Source: Escherichia phage vB_EcoM-E33. Taken from it: 64,000 nucleotides of DNA. Made by a program: the position numbers and the translations under genes. The notes under the pieces were generated by a model. The model did no database searches. It saw only the letters and a list, made by a program, of their open reading frames with translations, and was not told where the DNA came from. The DNA is taken from sequence record OL780484.1, one strand, 5' to 3'. Below are positions 20,353 through 44,852 of the stretch, in pieces. How positions within the stretch are numbered: the first letter of the stretch is position 1; each line of letters opens with the position of its first letter.

Positions 20353-20943
20353 ATGAACGGTTTATTTAACCAAACTAACACTACTAACTTTATCTTAGAG
20401 GTTAGTGACGCAGGAATGACACAGGCATTCAAATTGAACGTACAAGATGTAACACTACCGGGTATCCATATTCCGGTCTCAGACGTCCCAGGATCGACCC
20501 AGGGCATACATCGTGCTAAGCTGCCAGGTTCTACTGTAGAATTCGACCCATTGATTGTGAACTTTCTTGTGGACCGTGAATTGAAATCATGGCTTGATGT
20601 TTATAAGTGGATGTTGTCATTAAACAACTATGTAACCCATGATTCAGAAGCCTGGCACCCTAAAGGACAACCGGAAGCTATCACCCTCCACATCCTTGAT
20701 AACAACAAACAAAAAATCGTAATGAGCATTCATTACTACGGTGGTTGGCCATCCGACCTCTCGGAAATCCAGTACTCTTATAAAGAGGATTCTGACCCGG
20801 CGATAATCGCCACAGCAACATTCAACTTCAAATCGTTTGCTGTAGAAATAGATGGTACAATAGTTACAGGTCGTCCACAAATTGATTCGTATGCCGAACA
20901 ACGAGTGGCTCGTATGTCTATGCATCCATCTATGAGAAAATAA
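20353..20943 (+). CDS. 3: probable gp3 (tail tube terminator), assigned by position
   Basis: 196 aa ORF between gp2 and gp1 as in T4; no motif recognised. Confidence 0.5.
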   Translation: MNGLFNQTNTTNFILEVSDAGMTQAFKLNVQDVTLPGIHIPVSDVPGSTQGIHRAKLPGSTVEFDPLIVNFLVDRELKSWLDVYKWMLSLNNYVTHDSEAWHPKGQPEAITLHILDNNKQKIVMSIHYYGGWPSDLSEIQYSYKEDSDPAIIATATFNFKSFAVEIDGTIVTGRPQIDSYAEQRVARMSMHPSMRK

Positions 20944-21693
20944 TGAAACTAATATCAATTGTAGGAATCAAACGTAGCGGTAAGGATACCGTTGCTAACT
21001 ATGTAATCGAAAATATGGATTCGGTAAAATTTCAGCTCGCAGGTCCTATTAAAAAGTATCTGGCTGAAGCCTATGAATACATCTCTGATGACCCTGTATT
21101 CGACCGTAGTTACATGCCTAAACTAGATTTTAACTGTTTTGAAGGTATCGGTTACGACCGTGAAGAAATCCTTCCTTTAAAACCAGATGATGTGATTGAT
21201 ATCTTTGAACATGCTATTGTCAAACTGAATAATATCCTTCCTATTCCAGGAATTGATACCGTAACTACGTATCATTATGGTCCTACCATTCAATATCTGT
21301 CTGAAGAAACAAAAGACCAACTGTTTGAAGTAATAAATAAAAATAACAATTGGTCAGTACGTCGTCTCATGCAGACCCTTGGGACTGATATTATTGTTAA
21401 CCAATTTGATAAGATGTATTGGGTTAAGTTGTTCGCTTTAGACTATTTTGATAAAATATACTCTGATGCGAAATACTATGTCGTACCTGATGTTCGTCAA
21501 ACACACGAAATTGATTCGCTCAGAGCGATGGGTGCTACGATTATTCATGTAGTTCGCGCTGAAACCGGTCAAGTACAAGACTCGCACATCACTGAAGCGG
21601 GTCTACCAATTTTACCCGGTGACGTTGTTATTGAAAATAACGGCACTCTTTCTGAACTATACACCACTATTGATAAATTATTAGGAAATAAAA

Positions 21694-30163: not shown

Positions 30164-31123
30164 ATGATGTTAGTTATTGGTTCTCGTGCACTGCACCACG
30201 CTGGTCTGATTGAAAGTAAGCATATCGAAAATTCTGATTGGGATTTCATTGCCTACCAAGGCTCATGGAATCACTTTAAAGCACGTATGTTCGGCGCCCA
30301 TGTACACGTTGACAATCCTGATGTCCAGGCTTTCAAATGTATGCATAATGGTAAAGAAACCTATTTTGAAGCATATATCGTTCGTGCTCTGACTAACGTA
30401 CGAGAAATCACCGGTGAGCTCCAAGATGAAGATTTCACCTCAAGTTATCGTCTTCTGAAATATGCTGAAAATCATATTAAAAAGGACCGTCTTACAGGTT
30501 TCTATTGGGCAACCCCTGATATCTGTCTGGCTATCAAAACCTCCCATCGTTTCTTGAAGAATAATCCGTTCTTCTTGAAAACCATGTCCCACATCAAATA
30601 CCTTCGTAATAAAGGTATCACCCTTAACGAAGAACTCCAGGAAATTATGTTGCAACGTCAAAAAGAAACGTTGAGCTATTCCCACCCTAAATTGGATGTA
30701 AACAAATCATCGTTCTTTAATGATACCATTTATACCCTAGACCACGACTCTATCCATGAAGCAGTGGCATTGGCAGGGCGCCCTGCATATACCTTTTATA
30801 TGAAGGAAGGTTCTGAAGTCATGACCTCTCGTGAGAAGTTCGAGGCTTTGCCTGAAGCTATTAAACTGGCTGGTGTATATGAAGAAACTTGTGTCCTGGC
30901 ACTAGAACGTTCACAGGTTCCTAATGACTTCAATATTTCACCATCATTAAGTTTCTATATGGCCCTTGAGAAAGTGTGCACCTCAATCACTTCAGGTTGG
31001 TTCCGCACTTATGCATGGGAAAACTACCAAGCTGTGGTTAATATGTACAAGACTTTAGGTGAAAACGACTACATTGAACGGTTTAAGCGTAACCAACATT
31101 TAATTCGTCCTTTCGAAAAATAA
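30164..31123 (+). CDS. putative nucleotidyltransferase-fold protein
   Basis: ATG 30164 after SD gagga; N-terminal LVIGSRALHHAGLIESKHIENSDWDFIA fits the minimal NTase pattern G[SG]x9-13[DE]h[DE]h. Confidence 0.55.
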   Translation: MMLVIGSRALHHAGLIESKHIENSDWDFIAYQGSWNHFKARMFGAHVHVDNPDVQAFKCMHNGKETYFEAYIVRALTNVREITGELQDEDFTSSYRLLKYAENHIKKDRLTGFYWATPDICLAIKTSHRFLKNNPFFLKTMSHIKYLRNKGITLNEELQEIMLQRQKETLSYSHPKLDVNKSSFFNDTIYTLDHDSIHEAVALAGRPAYTFYMKEGSEVMTSREKFEALPEAIKLAGVYEETCVLALERSQVPNDFNISPSLSFYMALEKVCTSITSGWFRTYAWENYQAVVNMYKTLGENDYIERFKRNQHLIRPFEK

Positions 31124-31135
31124 TTGCACAAAACA

Positions 31136-31164
31136 GTGTACAAGGTCTATAGGTGTGATACTAT
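31136..31164 (+). promoter_or_regulatory. early promoter cassette inside a 10-bp inverted repeat
   Basis: -35 GTGTAC 31136-31141, TACTAT 31159-31164; aggtctatag (31143-31152) pairs with ctatagacct (31161-31170). Confidence 0.5.
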
Positions 31165-31201
31165 AGACCTATCAAAACAACAGAGTGAAATGGAGAATAA
31201 A

Positions 31202-31428: not shown

Positions 31429-32115
31429 ATGAATAGTTCTAAAGTGTTTAATAGTCAAGCTCGTGCAGTAGGCGGTTTTGCTCATGCAATTAAAAACGAC
31501 CAGATTAAAAACGAGCCTATGTTCTTTAACTGTGATTTGAATTTTGCTTTTGATAATGGCAGCCCAATTACTCGTAGCTTTATCCAAAATCTTCCTGACG
31601 ATTGGAAAGACTCGGATGTAGTATTTGATTCCCGTGTACACATGTTAATGCCTGGCTGGTATCCTGCTATCCCAGGTTATCACCATGATGATGTACCACG
31701 TCCGGATATTCCGGTGGGTCAACACTTTATTACCGCAGGGCAACCTGATTATGATAATCCTCGATACCATTCTGAACATATTCTTGGTCTTGTTAACGCT
31801 GATGTGTGTCCTACTCATTTTGCAACCGGAACTGCACAGTTCAGTCAGATTCCTGAAGGCGAACTTATCTATCGCCAGTGGCATAAAGAAGTTCTGGAAA
31901 AAATTGAGTCCAATGAATTAACCAAGTGGGATGCTCCTGACCGCACGTTACTCCAGTTTGATTGGCAGACATGGCATACAGGTTCTCGTGCAGTAAGTAA
32001 CGGTTGGCGCTGGTTTGGTCGTGTGTCTCGTAATACAGACCGTGTTAAAAAGATTACAAATGAAATCCGCGTTAATGCTCAAGTATATCTGGAATTCCCT
32101 ATGGAGGGCTGGTAA
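31429..32115 (+). CDS. hypothetical protein; spacing of HxD...H...RxS reminiscent of 2OG-Fe(II) oxygenases (speculative)
   Basis: 228 aa; HHD at residues 85-87, H183, RVS 198-200; SD gagga then ATG. Confidence 0.5.
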   Translation: MNSSKVFNSQARAVGGFAHAIKNDQIKNEPMFFNCDLNFAFDNGSPITRSFIQNLPDDWKDSDVVFDSRVHMLMPGWYPAIPGYHHDDVPRPDIPVGQHFITAGQPDYDNPRYHSEHILGLVNADVCPTHFATGTAQFSQIPEGELIYRQWHKEVLEKIESNELTKWDAPDRTLLQFDWQTWHTGSRAVSNGWRWFGRVSRNTDRVKKITNEIRVNAQVYLEFPMEGW

Positions 32116-32708
32116 TGGCCCTTTATGAACCTGGTTGTATGGGTATTGATACAAACTTCATCCGTCGGTCGGAAAATGCTGGAATTATTATCCCAAGTGG
32201 TGAGAATATGATTATTAAAAAGTCCTGGCGAAATATCGATGACTGTGATGAAGGAATTTCAGCCAGTACAATAGATTGGTCAGGTTGTACTGCCGAAATG
32301 AAACAGCTTTTAATTGAGGAATATAAAATGGGCTATATTGTAAACGGCTGGCAACCAGTAAAGAAAATCACTCGCACTGACGATAAGTATATTTGTCTCC
32401 AAGATGGAAAGGCCAGGCTCATTGATACTGAATGGCTTACGTTCGGACGATATGTTGTAGCGTATTTTATTACTTTACTTCCAATGTTAGTGCTGAGTTC
32501 ATTTTTAATCGATGCCAACTGGAATGATGCGCTAGAACGAACTATTATTGGCGCTGGATTAATGAACCTTGCCGCCGCTGGCGCTGCTTTAAGTATTTGG
32601 TGCTTGGCTATTGAAATGCCATGGCGTTTACGTCGTCAACAACGTCTTTACGACGAAGGTAAAATCAAACAGAATTTAAATGAGTTTATTGAGGAATGCC
32701 GTAAATGA
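32115..32708 (+). CDS. membrane protein (two C-terminal transmembrane helices)
   Basis: TAATG overlap with the upstream gene; hydrophobic YVVAYFITLLPMLVLSSFLI and IIGAGLMNLAAAGAALSIWCLAI. Confidence 0.55.
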   Translation: MALYEPGCMGIDTNFIRRSENAGIIIPSGENMIIKKSWRNIDDCDEGISASTIDWSGCTAEMKQLLIEEYKMGYIVNGWQPVKKITRTDDKYICLQDGKARLIDTEWLTFGRYVVAYFITLLPMLVLSSFLIDANWNDALERTIIGAGLMNLAAAGAALSIWCLAIEMPWRLRRQQRLYDEGKIKQNLNEFIEECRK

Positions 32709-32941
32709 GTATTGCAATTTATATTAAATCTGAGTCATGTGATTCTTACCTGTATTCCTATGATACCGGAACATCAGAAGAGAAAATTAAAGAAGACTTA
32801 GAAAGCGATATGGATATGTTCTGTCCTATTGGTGACTATATGCTTCAAGTGTCTGATAGTGAAAGTCCATCATCAGAAAATAGACTTCAAATTATTATGC
32901 AAGATATTTTTAAACAATCATGGGAACGAGACGATGAGTAA
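32705..32941 (+). CDS. small acidic hypothetical protein
   Basis: ATGA overlap with the upstream stop; 78 aa. Confidence 0.5.
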   Translation: MSIAIYIKSESCDSYLYSYDTGTSEEKIKEDLESDMDMFCPIGDYMLQVSDSESPSSENRLQIIMQDIFKQSWERDDE

Positions 32942-33383
32942 GAAAGCTAAGGAATTATCGGCAGGTATTTTGTTCATGACCGTTGATAAAGAACTAGTTA
33001 TGGGTCGTGTAACAGGCTCTCGTAATCCAGAGAATATGCGTCATAAATGGGACATTCCTAAGGGTCATGTCGAACCAGGCGAAGAGCCTATTCAAGCGGC
33101 AATGCGCGAAACCGAAGAAGAGATTGGATTCACAGCATACGATCCTGCGTTCCTGAAAGACCTAGGTGAGTTCAAATATTCAAGCAATAAGAATCTACAT
33201 CTGTTCTTATATACAGTGCCTGTGGAACACGAGCAGTTCAAGGATTGCAAATGTACGGCTTACCATACGTTCCCTGATGGTCGTACTATTCCTGAATTCG
33301 ATGCTTTTGCCTTGATTAAACGGCCACAATGGGAATATGTCATGGGCCCGTCGATGTTTAAGGTTTTGGATTCACTCTTTTGA
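32934..33383 (+). CDS. nudE: Nudix hydrolase (NudE-like)
   Basis: Nudix box GHVEPGEEPIQAAMRETEEEIGF; ATG 32934 overlaps the previous stop (ATGAGTAA); ORF-track start 32829 would be a 35-aa extension. Confidence 0.85.
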   Translation: MSKKAKELSAGILFMTVDKELVMGRVTGSRNPENMRHKWDIPKGHVEPGEEPIQAAMRETEEEIGFTAYDPAFLKDLGEFKYSSNKNLHLFLYTVPVEHEQFKDCKCTAYHTFPDGRTIPEFDAFALIKRPQWEYVMGPSMFKVLDSLF

Positions 33384-33413
33384 TATAAATACCTCCTATA
33401 CTCAGGAGGTATT
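33384..33413 (+). promoter_or_regulatory. late promoter TATAAATA plus SD-sequestering hairpin of gene e
   Basis: TATAAATA 33384-33391; atacctcct (33389-33397) pairs perfectly with aggaggtat (33404-33412), which contains the e gene SD. Confidence 0.7.
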
Positions 33414-33908
33414 ATGGATATTTTTGATATGTTACGTCAAGACGAAGGTCTTGATTTAAATCTTTATAAAGACACTGAAGGTTATTGGACTATTGGCATT
33501 GGCCAATTGATTACTAAGAACCCTTCTAAAGATGTTGCTCGTGCTGAACTTGATAAGCTTATGGGTCGAGTTTGTAATGGTCGTATTACTATGGCTGAAG
33601 CTGAACAACTCTTTAACCGATCGGTTGAAAATGCTCGTAGAGCTATTCTGCGTAATCCTAAATTGAAACCTGTTTATGATGTACTGGACGAAGTTCGTCG
33701 TTGTGCTTTAATTAACATGGTCTTCCAAATGGGTGAAGCAGGCGTAGCAGGGTTCACTAACTCTTTACGTATGCTCCAACAGAAACGTTGGAACGATGCG
33801 GCAGTTAACCTGGCTCAATCCCGTTGGTATAAACAAACTCCTAATCGTGCTAAGCGCGTGATTTCAACATTTAAAACAGGTACTTGGAAAGCATATGAAA
33901 ACTTATAA
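33414..33908 (+). CDS. e: endolysin (T4 lysozyme e)
   Basis: 164 aa; [30 protein letters not shown]...[31 protein letters not shown].. near-identical to T4 lysozyme; catalytic E11, D20, T26 present. Confidence 0.95.
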
Positions 33909-34293
33909 TGAATTTATCGCAGAGAATGTAATTCCTGCATCTAAAGAACTTTTGGCGATGTTTGAATCTGAAGAGTTCACTGAAGAACTGAATGAGAACC
34001 TGACCCAGGCCACTCCTCAGGTTATTCGCGTTCGTAATGCCCTTCAGACAGGCATGCAGGCTCGTGTATCTAAGACTATGAAGCTGGCATTCACCACTTC
34101 TAAAAATGAAGACTATGGTGATGGTATTGCAATGAACACTGGGCAGTATTATGTTGAGTGGAATGGTGAAACCGGTACTGCTAAGATTCGCCAAACGAGA
34201 GCAGCGGGTGGCAAAATGTTGGACCTTAAACTGAACGTTAAAGAGAAAGACGTCGCGGCTTTGTTCAAGAATTGGATGAAGACTTACAAATAA
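33895..34293 (+). CDS. internal-protein-like protein with capsid-targeting leader
   Basis: N-terminus [11 protein letters not shown] (identical EFIAE site to the T4 leader); start overlaps the e stop; 132 aa. Confidence 0.7.
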
Positions 34294-34322
34294 GTTTACA
34301 TCTCCTGTAGTCATGATACTAT
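34294..34322 (+). promoter_or_regulatory. early promoter inside stem-loop
   Basis: GTTTAC 34294-34299, 17 nt, TACTAT 34317-34322; arms atctcctgtag / ctacaggagat, the latter containing the denV SD. Confidence 0.6.
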
Positions 34323-34349
34323 AGACCTATCAACTACAGGAGATTAAAA

Positions 34350-34766
34350 ATGACTCGTATCAACCTTACCTTAGTATCTGAATTGGCTGACCAACACTTA
34401 ATGGCTGAATATCGTGAATTACCACGTGTTTTCGGTGCAGTTCGTAAGCATGTTGCTAATGGTAAACGTGTCCGTGATTTCAAAATCAGTCCTACTTTTA
34501 TCCTTGGCACAGGCCATGTTACATTCTTTTACGATAAGCTTGAATTTTTACGTAAGCGACAAATTGAGCTTATAGCCGAATGTTTAAAACGTGGTTTTAA
34601 TATCAAGGATACTACTGTCCAGGACATTAGTGACATTCCTCAGGAATTCCGTGGTGACTATACTCCACACGAAGCTTCTATTGCTATATCTCAGGCCCGT
34701 TTGGACGAAAAAATTGCACAACGCTCTACCTGGTACAAACATTACGGCAAGGCTATTTACGCTTAA
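34350..34766 (+). CDS. denV: endonuclease V (pyrimidine dimer DNA glycosylase)
   Basis: 138 aa; [34 protein letters not shown]... essentially colinear with T4 DenV as recalled. Confidence 0.93.
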
Positions 34767-42619: not shown

Positions 42620-43078
42620 ATGATTATCAATGCAAACTCTTGGCATGTTAAACTACATGACCGTTTTTATGCCAGTTATTCACGTCCGCGCTCATTATGC
42701 GCATACTTCTGGAAAATGGTTTGGGCGTGCTTTATATGTTCTGTGCTTGCAGGTAGTACTATTTTCGGCTTAACTGTTGCAGGTGCCGGTATATTGGAGC
42801 AGTTCTTTGTATTGAGTACTCCTGTTGGTTTAAGTTTAGGTTTTATTTTAGGACTGGTTACACTAGCTCTTATTCTAGCGGTAGCCGTTGGTATTGTGTA
42901 TTGTATAATGAATTTATGGTCCTGGTATGATTTACGTAAAGAAGAAAAGGAATGGCTACTAATTAAAGCTAAACGTGAAGGAAAGGAAATTAAAGAAAAT
43001 ATCGTTATTCAATATATCAAAGCTCGTAAATCTAAGGTCTGCCCTGTAATCCACTTCGAGAACAAAACAAACCCATAA
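42620..43078 (+). CDS. integral membrane protein
   Basis: Several hydrophobic helices (FWKMVWACFICSVLAGSTIFGLTVAG, PVGLSLGFILGLVTLALILAVAVGIVYCI). Confidence 0.55.
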   Translation: MIINANSWHVKLHDRFYASYSRPRSLCAYFWKMVWACFICSVLAGSTIFGLTVAGAGILEQFFVLSTPVGLSLGFILGLVTLALILAVAVGIVYCIMNLWSWYDLRKEEKEWLLIKAKREGKEIKENIVIQYIKARKSKVCPVIHFENKTNP

Positions 43079-43842
43079 TGAATTATACCAAGCTTTATGA
43101 TAGTCTAATCCAAAGAGGTAAACTTAGAGGATTAGACAAATCCAAATTAAATTTTTATACAGAGTCCCATCATATACTCCCATCATGTATTGGTGGGAGT
43201 GATGAACCTAATAATTTAGTTCTGTTGACAGCCAGAGAACATTTTATAGCACACTGGCTTCTAGCTAGAATTCATTCTGATTCTTCTGGACTAATTTATG
43301 CTTGGTGGTCGTTTTATAGCTTCGGTGAGGATTCTCTAGGAAGAAATCTTAAACTAACTTCTAGAGGATACCAATTAGTTAGAGAAAAATTTTCAGAAAT
43401 TCATTCAAATGCGATGAAAGAAATATGGAAGACTGAAGAGTATAGAAATAAACGTTCTATAACTATGAGTCTACCGGAAATAAAAGATAAAATGTCTGCC
43501 GCTCAAATAGAAGCTCAAAACCGTCCTGAAGTTAAAGAGAAAATTTCTAAAGCTATTAAAGAAGCATTTAAACGCCCTGATGTTAGAGAAAGGCATTCTA
43601 ATGCTGTTAAGAAATCTCTAAATAATCCGGAAACTAAAAAGAGGCAATCTGATGCTTCTAAAGCAAAGCAAAGAATAGGAAAACATTGGCAAGATTATGA
43701 TTTGCTTTATTCTTTATGGGTTAAATTAAATAGGCCTAAGCGTGGGGCTTTTGGTACTTATATTAGTAAATTAGGATATCCCAAATCTAACTACCAACGT
43801 TTAATTATGCAATTTATTGAAGACTATGAAAGAGGTGAATAA
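43078..43842 (+). CDS. HNH homing endonuclease (free-standing), copy 2
   Basis: YTESHHILPSCIGGSDEPNNLVLLTAREHFIAH HNH motif; N-terminal ~60 aa paralogous to the 19620 endonuclease; C-terminal repeats NRPEVKEKISKAIK / RPDVRERHSNAVKK / NPETKKRQSDASK. Confidence 0.8.
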   Translation: MNYTKLYDSLIQRGKLRGLDKSKLNFYTESHHILPSCIGGSDEPNNLVLLTAREHFIAHWLLARIHSDSSGLIYAWWSFYSFGEDSLGRNLKLTSRGYQLVREKFSEIHSNAMKEIWKTEEYRNKRSITMSLPEIKDKMSAAQIEAQNRPEVKEKISKAIKEAFKRPDVRERHSNAVKKSLNNPETKKRQSDASKAKQRIGKHWQDYDLLYSLWVKLNRPKRGAFGTYISKLGYPKSNYQRLIMQFIEDYERGE

Positions 43843-44852
43843 TGAGAACAGTTATGAAGGGATATTTTGGCTCCCACCTTTATGGAACAAGTACTCCGGA
43901 ATCTGATGTCGATTTTAAAGAAATCTTTGTTCCACATCCGCGTGATATTCTGTTAGGTACGGCTATGAACCATACCAACCTGAATACGAATAACACTGCT
44001 TCCAAAAACACTAAAGATGATGTTGACCACGAGCTTTACAGTCTGAAATATTTCTTTAAACTAGCGGCTGATGGCGAAACAGTTGCTTTGGATATGCTCC
44101 ACACTCCACCTGAACTGGTGGTTAAATCTGATTTACCTGATGTATGGAAATTTATCCAGGATAACCGTTCTCGGTTCTATACAACCAACATGAAAGCCTA
44201 TTTAGGGTACGTCCGTAAGCAAGCTTCTAAATATGGTGTTAAGGGTTCTCGTCTGGCTGCTCTGCGTGGTGTACTGGCAATCGTTAACCAGATTCCTGAA
44301 CAGTGGGTTGACTATCAAGAAGGAATCCCTGATAGACTTCGTCGTACTAAGGTAGAAGATATCAAACACAGACTCCCTGAAAATGAGTTCTGTGAATGGG
44401 TATTCCATAACCATGAGAAAACAGGCCCTCAAACGTTCTATACTGTTCTAGGACGTAAGTACCAAACTACTTTGTCTTTAATCGAGCTCAAGCAATCTCT
44501 GAATAAGCTCGATGCTGAATATGGTGAACGTGCCCGTAAAGCTGAAGCTAACGAAGGTATTGACTGGAAAGCTCTGAGCCATGCTTATCGGGCTGGGTAT
44601 CAATTGTTGGAAATCTACCAAACAGGCGACCTGGTATTCCCATTGCGCGAAGCCTCTATCATTAAGCTGATTAAGGCCGGTGAACTTCCATTTAAAGAGG
44701 TCCAAGAACTTCTTGAAGACACTGTTGATTTAGTCGAAGTACTGGCTATCCAGGCTCATAAGAACGGTATGCCTGCTAAGGTAGATATGAAGTTCTGGGA
44801 CAAGTTTGTTGAAGAGGTATACCTTGACAACCACAACTCTTATTATCGATAA
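43842..44852 (+). CDS. nucleotidyltransferase-fold protein (RNA-repair-associated family?)
   Basis: N-terminus KGYFGSHLYGTSTPESDVDF fits NTase G[SG]x9-13DhD; 336 aa; ATGA overlap with the HNH gene. Confidence 0.6.
   Translation: MRTVMKGYFGSHLYGTSTPESDVDFKEIFVPHPRDILLGTAMNHTNLNTNNTASKNTKDDVDHELYSLKYFFKLAADGETVALDMLHTPPELVVKSDLPDVWKFIQDNRSRFYTTNMKAYLGYVRKQASKYGVKGSRLAALRGVLAIVNQIPEQWVDYQEGIPDRLRRTKVEDIKHRLPENEFCEWVFHNHEKTGPQTFYTVLGRKYQTTLSLIELKQSLNKLDAEYGERARKAEANEGIDWKALSHAYRAGYQLLEIYQTGDLVFPLREASIIKLIKAGELPFKEVQELLEDTVDLVEVLAIQAHKNGMPAKVDMKFWDKFVEEVYLDNHNSYYR

What the first reader, a model, noticed from the sequence alone, without database searches (positions are those of the whole stretch)
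30164..31123. Second, unrelated nucleotidyltransferase-like protein
The N-terminus MMLVIGSRALHHAGLIESKHIENSDWDFIA has the G-S...D-x-D spacing of minimal nucleotidyltransferases, followed by about 270 aa with no motif I recognise. Together with the 43842 protein this gives two NTase-fold candidates in one window. Their substrates (nucleic acid ends, nucleotides, antibiotics or signalling molecules) are open.
Basis: partly seen in the sequence, partly recalled or inferred. Interest (0 to 1): 0.5.

Follow-up and report, generated by a model that had tools for sequence, protein, structure and literature searches.

The report
Phage nucleotidyltransferase with Cys-tailed partner proteins
The ORF is a real nucleotidyltransferase-fold enzyme of an uncharacterised family found almost only in phages, and in nearly every phage that has it the gene sits just downstream of one to six small acidic proteins ending in the same W-x-x-S-S-x-x-Cys tail, which suggests a protein-modification module nobody has described.

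Summary

New here: 75 of 80 IMG/VR loci, and every canonical locus fetched by other routes, carry 1-6 small acidic ORFs (PHROG 899, median 88 aa, pI 4.4). They lie on the same strand, almost always within 2 kb upstream, and 196 of 200 end in ...W-x-x-S-S-x-x-C. This window has four, at 28241-29280. T4's early regions have neither gene. Short divergent NTase homologues lack the small ORFs and also lack a set of C-domain residues.

Best reading (inferred): the enzyme binds these tails and transfers a nucleotide or phosphate to a tail serine. Inhibitor, adaptor and RNA-substrate readings remain open.

The parts
30164..31123 (+). NTase gene, 319 aa (DUF7277 + DUF7275; PHROG 2141)
30167..30466 (+). 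N-terminal minimal NTase core (aa 2-101, DUF7277). Catalytic codons: G6-S7 at 30179-30184, D25-x-D27 at 30236-30244, E69 at 30368-30370.
   Evidence: Invariant columns in A1. Secondary-structure positions in the model. Fold matches.
30521..31078 (+). C-terminal helical domain (aa 120-305, DUF7275). Its first helices continue the MenT/ANT-like module (invariant K125, H128, K139). The rest is family-specific (HPxL 174-177, YDHDxxH 192-198, GVYEE 237-241, LALER 245-249, KVCTSITSGWFR 270-281).
28241..28531 (+). Small acidic partner protein 1 (96 aa), ends ...AWISSSAMC
   Evidence: PHROG 899, E 2.8e-23. Tail motif.
28541..28822 (+). Small acidic partner protein 2 (93 aa), ends ...GWVSSSSEC
   Evidence: PHROG 899, E 2.4e-20..
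28832..29044 (+). Small acidic partner protein 3 (70 aa), ends ...FWFTSSMSC
   Evidence: PHROG 899, E 6e-14..
29056..29280 (+). Small acidic partner protein 4 (74 aa), two-motif type: internal DWLNSSCYGEE and terminal IWYPSSC
   Evidence: PHROG 899, E 1.4e-9. The two-motif subtype recurs in 28 of 200 distinct proteins.
29274..30144 (+). Three intervening genes (75, 116 and 79 aa; PHROGs 7065, 9796, 3723, all of unknown function). They are tightly packed with the others but conserved only among T4-like relatives, so they are probably not part of the core module.
   Evidence: In other lineages the small ORFs abut the NTase gene directly.
31143..31170 (+). 10-bp RNA hairpin 20 nt after the NTase stop codon, with no U-tract. 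Possible transcript-end or stability element.
   Evidence: Folding energy -19.5 kcal/mol, z -3.74, 0 of 200 shuffles as stable.

Best explanation
The gene encodes an active, Mg2+-dependent polymerase-beta-fold nucleotidyltransferase, made early in infection. G6-S7 holds the NTP phosphates, D25/D27 hold the metals, and E69 is the third carboxylate. The first helices of DUF7275 (K125, H128, K139) complete the nucleotide site, as the helical lobe does in MenT and ANT(2''). The rest of DUF7275 is a phage-specific acceptor-binding domain. I propose that the acceptor is the invariant C-terminal tail G-x-W-x-(S/A/P)-S-S-x-x-C-COOH of the small acidic proteins encoded just upstream, four of them here. 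In this model the tail docks on DUF7275 and one of its serine hydroxyls receives an NMP, or a phosphate as in MenT autophosphorylation. That would yield covalently modified small proteins that act on host targets, plausibly defence systems. Shown: the fold, the catalytic motifs, restriction to phages, and the conserved gene pairing. Inferred: enzymatic activity, physical binding of the tail, which atom is modified, and the downstream role.
For: NTase fold and intact catalytic residues. Gene pairing: 75 of 80 IMG/VR loci have at least one tail-bearing ORF on the same strand. Of 223 such ORFs, 222 lie upstream and 206 within 2 kb, against 6 on the opposite strand. All 18 clusters at 60% NTase identity show the pairing, and the nearest small ORF ends a median of 346 nt before the NTase start. 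The pairing is also seen in loci reached from the small-protein side and in GenBank phages of Escherichia, Pseudomonas, Acinetobacter, Xanthomonas and Aeromonas, as well as in MAG contigs. Controls: there are no motif ORFs elsewhere in this 64-kb window or in 93 kb of T4, which also lacks the NTase. The tail is under protein-level selection. W, S and C are invariant in A4 while the rest averages 16% column identity. Of 200 distinct proteins, 196 end in Cys, and the Ser codons switch between TCN and AGY. Correlated loss: the short homologues (KVP40, Faust, JonJames) have no small ORFs nearby and lack R129, H174-P175 and the C272/S277/G278/F280 residues. Multiple diverged paralogues per genome, and proteins carrying the motif twice, fit a portable acceptor tag better than a single inhibitor. 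Precedents: MntA poly-adenylylates a residue of HepT (PMC7641770), and MenT active sites transfer phosphate to a Ser/Thr hydroxyl (PMC11375011).
Against: Gene linkage shows a functional connection, not a substrate relationship. The closest structural neighbour, MenT1, acts on tRNA 3' ends, and its small upstream partner MenA1 is an inhibitor (PMC10435456). The enzyme and the small proteins are both acidic, which is unremarkable but gives no electrostatic support. Five of 80 loci lack a same-strand small ORF within 6 kb. Four of these have one on the other strand and one, L051, has none. One tail ends in ...SSSQN rather than Cys.
Confidence: 0.4

Rival explanations
1. MenAT1-like arrangement. 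The enzyme is a MenT-like RNA/tRNA 3'-end nucleotidyltransferase, used for host shut-off or for repairing or blocking tRNA. The small upstream proteins are its inhibitors or regulators, and their tail plugs the active site.
Against: MenA1 works through its N-terminal helix, and its C-terminal 17 residues are dispensable (PMC10435456). Here the tail is invariant and the helix is variable. One to six diverged paralogues per genome is odd for an antitoxin. The MenT phosphoacceptor position (T39/S78) is Asp25 here. Family pI is mostly 5-7, without the basic character expected of a tRNA binder. No PF08843 match in any of 42 members. The family is absent from bacterial genomes, where toxin-antitoxin pairs live.
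Confidence: 0.2
2. Adaptor model. The invariant tail is only a docking peptide. Each paralogue's variable body binds a different host protein and presents it to the NTase, which nucleotidylylates that host target.
For: The pattern of a variable body plus an invariant tail, with several paralogues per genome. In rV5-like phages the small ORFs sit directly beside an Acb2/Tad1-hairpin anti-defence gene.
Against: No host target is known. The invariant Ser-Ser and terminal Cys look more like chemistry than docking alone. Proteins carrying the motif twice are hard to explain as adaptors.
Confidence: 0.15
3. Small-molecule NTase. Like ANT(2'') and Lnu enzymes, it nucleotidylylates a hydroxyl of a metabolite, antibiotic or immune signal. 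The small proteins are merely co-regulated neighbours.
Against: It does not explain linkage to the small ORFs across 18 of 18 sequence clusters, or the correlated loss of both. The enzyme is twice the size of ANT/Lnu proteins and has an extra domain of unknown fold.
Confidence: 0.15
4. Catalytically dead NTase-fold scaffold that only binds the small proteins or a nucleotide.
For: No activity has been shown. Phages often use enzyme folds as binders.
Against: All three carboxylates and the G-S motif are invariant over the 42 diverse homologues aligned, out of about 1,600 clusters at 50% identity. That pattern is what is expected for catalysis.
Confidence: 0.05

Closest known systems
MenT1/MenA1 (Rv0078A/B) and the DUF1814 AbiEii/MenT toxins
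   Different: No sequence match to PF08843. The first metal ligand is Asp25 rather than the Ser/Thr phosphoacceptor. There is an extra family-specific C-terminal region of about 150 aa with no known fold. The family is phage-only. The partners are multi-copy, unrelated to MenA1, and conserved in the tail rather than the helix.
MntA-HepT (MNT/HEPN) module
   Same: A minimal NTase that covalently nucleotidylylates a residue of its genomically linked protein partner (PMC7641770). This is the mechanistic precedent for my best explanation.
   Different: MntA is a single-domain MNT of about 130 aa, and its partner is a HEPN RNase. No homology was detected with either component here.
ANT(2'')-Ia / LnuA antibiotic nucleotidyltransferases
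   Different: They are about 160-180 aa, with no DUF7275-specific region. They are bacterial resistance genes acting on small molecules.
CitX / MdcG holo-ACP synthases (from my own knowledge, not tested here)
   Same: These are enzymes I recall, without having checked, as NTase-fold; they attach a nucleotide-derived group to a serine of a small acidic carrier protein.
   Different: They did not appear among the structural or sequence matches. Their carrier proteins have no Cys-terminal tail.
RlaP / T4 nrdC.11 (the other NTase in the window, 43842-44852)
   Same: Same superfamily fold class and also phage-borne.
   Different: A different Pfam family (PF10127). It is present in T4, whereas this gene is not found in the 93 kb of T4 searched.

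Membership tests
Polymerase-beta-like nucleotidyltransferase fold superfamily | hG[GS] at the strand-helix junction | tested here: met
   G6-S7 are invariant in 42 sequences and in 9 divergent ones. Strand 2-5 and helix 6-12 in the model.
Polymerase-beta-like nucleotidyltransferase fold superfamily | [DE]h[DE]h on the next strand, plus a third carboxylate on a later strand | tested here: met
   D25, D27 and E69 are invariant in A1 and lie on strands 26-31 and 64-73. E69 could not be aligned with confidence in the truncated short subfamily.
Polymerase-beta-like nucleotidyltransferase fold superfamily | Three-dimensional similarity to solved NTases | tested here: met
Polymerase-beta-like nucleotidyltransferase fold superfamily | NTP-dependent nucleotidyl transfer | not testable with these tools
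   Needs biochemistry.
DUF1814 / AbiEii / MenT toxins | Sequence membership (PF08843) | tested here: not met
   No hit at E up to 10 for the query or any of 42 members.
DUF1814 / AbiEii / MenT toxins | C-terminal motifs with catalytic Lys and Asp (MenT3 K189, D211; PMC7450476) | tested here: inconclusive
   K125 is invariant and is plausibly the equivalent residue. Position 143 is Asp in most members but His in T4-like ones. No residue-level superposition was available.
DUF1814 / AbiEii / MenT toxins | Ser/Thr phosphoacceptor two residues before the catalytic Asp (MenT1 T39-x-D41, MenT3 S78-x-D80) | tested here: not met
   The position is Asp25 in all sequences. The MenT residues are from PMC7450476 and PMC11375011.
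DUF1814 / AbiEii / MenT toxins | Bacterial toxin with a cognate antitoxin gene upstream | tested here: inconclusive
   Small genes do lie upstream. But the family is phage-only: 5 MAG contigs among 185,579 species genomes. The partners are multi-copy and unrelated to known MenA types.
Pfam DUF7277 + DUF7275 / PHROG 2141 | Profile match above the curated cut-off | tested here: met
   94.8 and 258.7 bits against cut-offs of 27. PHROG 2141, E 4.5e-149 over the full length.
cGAS/DncV-like CD-NTases | Fold and sequence similarity to CD-NTases; CBASS-type context | tested here: not met
Class II CCA-adding / poly(A) polymerases | PolyA_pol head domain and body/tail RNA-binding domains | tested here: not met
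HD phosphohydrolases (my own lead for the C-domain, from the H...DHD...H pattern) | HD-domain helical fold | tested here: not met
Lanthipeptide-type RiPP systems | Tandem precursor genes next to the modifying enzyme; Ser/Thr and Cys in a conserved C-terminal core | tested here: met
   1-6 tandem small ORFs per locus with an S-S-x-x-C terminus.
Lanthipeptide-type RiPP systems | Recognisable dehydratase/cyclase (LanB, LanM, LanKC/L, LanC), or detection of a dehydrated or cyclised product | tested here: not met
   No such Pfam domain in the NTase or its neighbours. Product chemistry cannot be tested here.

The most novel reading that the evidence does not exclude
The module is a phage-encoded post-translational maturation system of a new chemical type. 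The NTase activates a tail serine by O-nucleotidylylation. The DUF7275-specific residues then promote elimination to dehydroalanine, and the invariant terminal cysteine attacks it. This would give a small thioether (lanthionine-like) ring at the C-terminus of a set of acidic effector proteins. It would be a RiPP-like pathway in virulent phages that uses a polymerase-beta NTase instead of a kinase or glutamyl-tRNA dehydratase.
Probability: 0.08. Interest if true: 0.9.

Novelty: new variant of a known kind. Interest (0 to 1): 0.66.

Why it matters
The NTase fold is familiar, but this family is common: 733 of about 50,700 phage records, and about 1,600 clusters at 50% identity. It is restricted to phages, has never been studied, and T4 lacks it in the 93 kb of early-gene regions searched, so classical genetics never touched it. 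The pairing with multi-copy, Cys-terminated acidic proteins turns an 'orphan enzyme' into a concrete two-component system that can be tested with one co-expression and one intact-mass measurement. If the tails are modified, this would be, as far as I know, the first dedicated protein-nucleotidylylation (or related) system of virulent phages, and its effectors are likely to act in host takeover or counter-defence. If instead the small proteins gate a MenT-like activity, it would be a phage-borne version of a toxin-antitoxin principle. Either result would be new biology and would annotate two large families of 'hypothetical proteins'.

Tried and rejected

2. Arabinosyl-hydroxycytosine DNA-modification pathway. 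The NTase of that pathway is an RmlA-like bifunctional enzyme (AfhE / RB69 gp52:53) encoded elsewhere. The present family also occurs in phages with other DNA chemistries.

3. Conserved neighbour search using only the adjacent genes. Blastp found nothing beyond close relatives. The partners were only seen after scanning for the C-terminal motif.

4. Informative domain fusions. None were found. The apparent small-protein-NTase fusion P0233 is a gene-calling artefact that reads through an in-frame TAG.

5. Sequence searches against the PDB, NCBIfam and PADLOC found nothing.

6. The profile search of 1.84 billion representatives lists only its best 150 hits. These were all full-length family members, so no bridge to another family was obtained.

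7. Literature searches for the Pfam/PHROG/VOG identifiers, for phage NTase anti-defence, for RiPP plus NTase, and for AMPylation found nothing on this family.

8. The promoter/terminator scan around the gene showed no excess over shuffles.

9. T4 tk.1 gave a weak hit to the small-protein HMM, but it lacks the tail. The similarity is in the helix only.

Full report
**Context.** The window comes from a T4-like phage of the genus Dhakavirus (Straboviridae). The protein encoded at 30164-31123 is 99.7% identical to QL01_123 of Escherichia phage QL01. The gene lies in the variable early region between the tRNA genes (24136-24292) and nudE / lysozyme e / denV (32829-34766). All genes in this stretch are on the + strand and tightly packed.

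**The observation.** The ORF is 319 codons long, with a GAGGA ribosome-binding site 7 nt before the ATG at 30164, and the N-terminus reads as quoted. In an alignment of 42 homologues down to 44% identity, G6, S7, D25, D27 and E69 are invariant. Nine further sequences down to 26% identity keep the G-S and D-x-D residues. An AlphaFold2 model built on that alignment is confident (mean pLDDT 92.4, pTM 0.85). It places G6-S7 at the junction of strand 2-5 and helix 6-12, D25/D27 at the start of strand 26-31, and E69 on strand 64-73. This is the classical arrangement of a minimal polymerase-beta-type NTase.

**Fold.**
- Foldseek lists the same kinds of protein first, although with weak E-values.
- The 145 aligned residues exceed the N-domain of about 105 residues, so the first helices of the second Pfam domain belong to the MenT/ANT-like catalytic module. 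These helices carry the invariant K125, H128 and K139.

**What sequence databases say.** The protein matches only Pfam DUF7277 (aa 2-101) and DUF7275 (aa 120-305), and PHROG 2141, which has no assigned function. It has no match in NCBIfam, PADLOC or PDB sequences. None of the 42 members touches a Pfam NTase family, apart from one chance-level hit to DUF6036. One GenBank record (Acinetobacter phage Apostate) calls its homologue 'putative nucleotidyltransferase', and the others say 'hypothetical protein'. No paper in the library mentions the family identifiers.

**Distribution.**
- tblastn finds the protein in 733 of 50,697 phage records. Hosts include Escherichia, Acinetobacter, Aeromonas, Pseudomonas, Vibrio, Klebsiella, Gordonia and Streptomyces.
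- The 5.8-billion-protein collection holds 1,920 relatives.
- A profile search of 1.84 billion representatives finds 1,599 clusters at 50% identity.
- A scan of one genome for each of 185,579 bacterial and archaeal species finds only five loci, all on MAG contigs that look like phage DNA. The family is effectively phage-only.
- T4 itself has nothing at the syntenic position. It also has no homologue in the 93 kb of early-gene regions I searched, coordinates 1-74 kb and 150-169 kb. The late-gene region 74-150 kb was not searched.

**The unexpected finding.** Comparing only the immediately adjacent genes across distant phages showed nothing. I then noticed that the protein upstream of the Pseudomonas phage homologue ends like four small ORFs in this window. 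A scan for ORFs ending in W-x(1-3)-S-S-x(0-3)-C found such ORFs on the same strand, within 3 kb, in every locus with a full-length NTase. It found none in T4. The ORFs belong to one family, PHROG 899, of unknown function and with no Pfam model.

In this window they are 28241-28531, 28541-28822, 28832-29044 and 29056-29280. The first three stop codons are each followed within 9-11 nt by the next gene's start, preceded by a Shine-Dalgarno-like sequence; the fourth ORF's stop overlaps the start of the next gene at 29274.

Alignment of 24 members gives only three invariant positions besides the start: the W, one S and the terminal C. Mean column identity is 16%.

**Quantifying the pairing.**
- An IMG/VR scan returned 80 NTase loci, each with up to 6-kb flanks on both sides.
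- 75 of the 80 have at least one small ORF, detected by HMM or motif, on the NTase strand.
- Of 223 such ORFs, 222 lie upstream and 206 within 2 kb. Only 6 hits are on the opposite strand.
- Copy number per locus ranges from 1 to 6.
- The 80 loci fall into 18 clusters at 60% NTase identity, and all 18 show the pairing. The nearest small ORF ends a median of 346 nt before the NTase start, and within 100 nt in 25 loci.
- Of the five exceptions, four have family members on the other strand about 5 kb away, and one (L051) has none.
- Starting from the small proteins instead, five of six look-ups found a DUF7277/DUF7275 gene 2-3 kb downstream. In the sixth, the contig ends right after the small ORF.
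- Among 200 distinct small proteins, 196 end in Cys. Median length is 88 aa and median pI is 4.4. The commonest tail is G-x-W-x-S-S-S-x-x-C, and 28 carry a second, internal copy of the motif.
- Serine codons in the tail switch between TCN and AGY, so selection acts on the protein rather than on a DNA or RNA element.

**Correlated absence.** Three divergent homologues of about 250 aa (KVP40, Streptomyces phage Faust, Gordonia phage JonJames) are still DUF7275 members, but their N-domain is truncated. They have no small ORFs nearby. They also lack residues that are invariant in the canonical family: R129, H174-P175, C272, S277, G278 and F280. They keep the NTase motifs, K125, H128, K139, H194-D195, H198, E240-E241 and E248-R249. 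T4 lacks both genes. This is what one expects if the canonical-specific residues serve the small proteins.

**Mechanism.** I regard the following as shown: the NTase fold, the intact catalytic residues, and a strongly conserved operon-like pairing with tail-bearing small proteins.

I infer that the tail binds the DUF7275 domain next to the active site. Three roles fit this:
- **Acceptor.** The tail is the substrate.
- **Plug.** The tail inhibits the enzyme, as in MenA1/MenT1.
- **Docking peptide.** The small protein is an adaptor.

I favour the acceptor role for four reasons.
- The invariant residues are two serines and a cysteine, that is, nucleophiles.
- The body of the protein is free to vary and the genes multiply.
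- The motif can occur twice in one protein.
- In the MenAT1 precedent it is the N-terminal helix that inhibits, and the C-terminal tail is dispensable (PMC10435456). That is the opposite conservation pattern.

There are chemical precedents. MntA poly-adenylylates its partner HepT (PMC7641770), and MenT active sites can transfer phosphate to a Ser/Thr hydroxyl (PMC11375011). One difference from MenT is that the phosphoacceptor position (T39 in MenT1, S78 in MenT3; PMC7450476, PMC11375011) is Asp25 here. That predicts an ordinary two-metal NTase rather than a self-inactivating one.

The downstream role is unknown. Very acidic small early proteins, and an Acb2/Tad1-hairpin gene directly beside the small ORFs in rV5-like phages, hint weakly at counter-defence.

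**Rivals and rejected leads.**
- The MenT-like RNA-substrate reading with regulatory small proteins remains serious. The small-molecule reading explains the fold matches but not the pairing.
- The arabinosyl-DNA pathway was excluded.
- A seeming fusion of a small protein to the NTase (P0233) turned out to be a read-through of an in-frame TAG.

**Verdict.** Taken as 'an NTase-like ORF' the finding is ordinary. It becomes interesting because the enzyme belongs to a large, phage-restricted, unstudied family that is coupled to a second unstudied family with a striking invariant Cys-terminated tail. I rate it a new variant of a known kind, interest 0.66. There is a small chance (about 0.08) that the chemistry is of a new, RiPP-like type.

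Noticed in passing
window 31143-31170: A stable 10-bp hairpin (GGUCUAUAGG...ACUAUAGACC) lies 20 nt after the NTase stop codon, at -19.5 kcal/mol and z -3.7 against shuffles. It has no U-tract, so it is not a classical intrinsic terminator. It may be an mRNA 3'-end or stability element.
   Followed up: partly
L012 4144-4413 (Escherichia phage tuntematon) and L024 3932-4207: In rV5-like phages the gene immediately upstream of the small Cys-tailed ORFs has an Acb2/Tad1 hairpin domain (PF24729, E 1e-19). This is a known anti-CBASS/anti-Thoeris sponge fold, so the module sits in an anti-defence neighbourhood there.
   Followed up: partly
window 31429-32115 and 32115-32708: A 228-aa protein (PHROG 1843, no Pfam match) and a 197-aa predicted membrane protein (PHROG 2203) follow the NTase. 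ORFs of the same lengths follow it in the same order in Tequatrovirus JK45 and on an Aeromonas-phage contig; homology was checked only for the JK45 228-aa protein (95% identity). The 228-aa protein has a conspicuous H-H-D-D stretch. Its function is unknown.
   Followed up: no
window 43078-44852: A 254-aa HNH-type homing-endonuclease-like ORF (43078-43842) directly abuts the RlaP-family NTase (43842-44852, PF10127, E 1.8e-11). This mirrors T4 mobD next to nrdC.11.
   Followed up: partly
L004 (KVP40 20389-21150), L014 (Faust gp204), L015 (JonJames gp15): A short subfamily (about 250 aa) keeps DUF7275 but only the first 30 or so residues of the NTase core (G-S and D-x-D). It has no Cys-tailed neighbours. 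In Faust it lies next to an RNA ligase gene, and in JonJames it lies near a tRNA cluster. Its function may differ from the canonical family.
   Followed up: partly
L109 1-350: A metagenomic gene call (P0233) fuses a small protein to the NTase by reading through an in-frame TAG. That small protein ends ...GGPACW, with a Trp after the Cys, which is an unusual tail.
   Followed up: yes
L025 4202-4384 (marine Tara contig): One family member ends ...EWTSSSQN instead of ...C. It is one of only 4 non-Cys endings found among the 200 IMG/VR proteins, plus this one.
   Followed up: no
window 24136-24292: Only two tRNA genes (Met-CAT and Arg-TCT) are present where T4 has eight. The tRNA-to-lysozyme region is instead filled with about 25 small ORFs of unknown function.
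   Followed up: no
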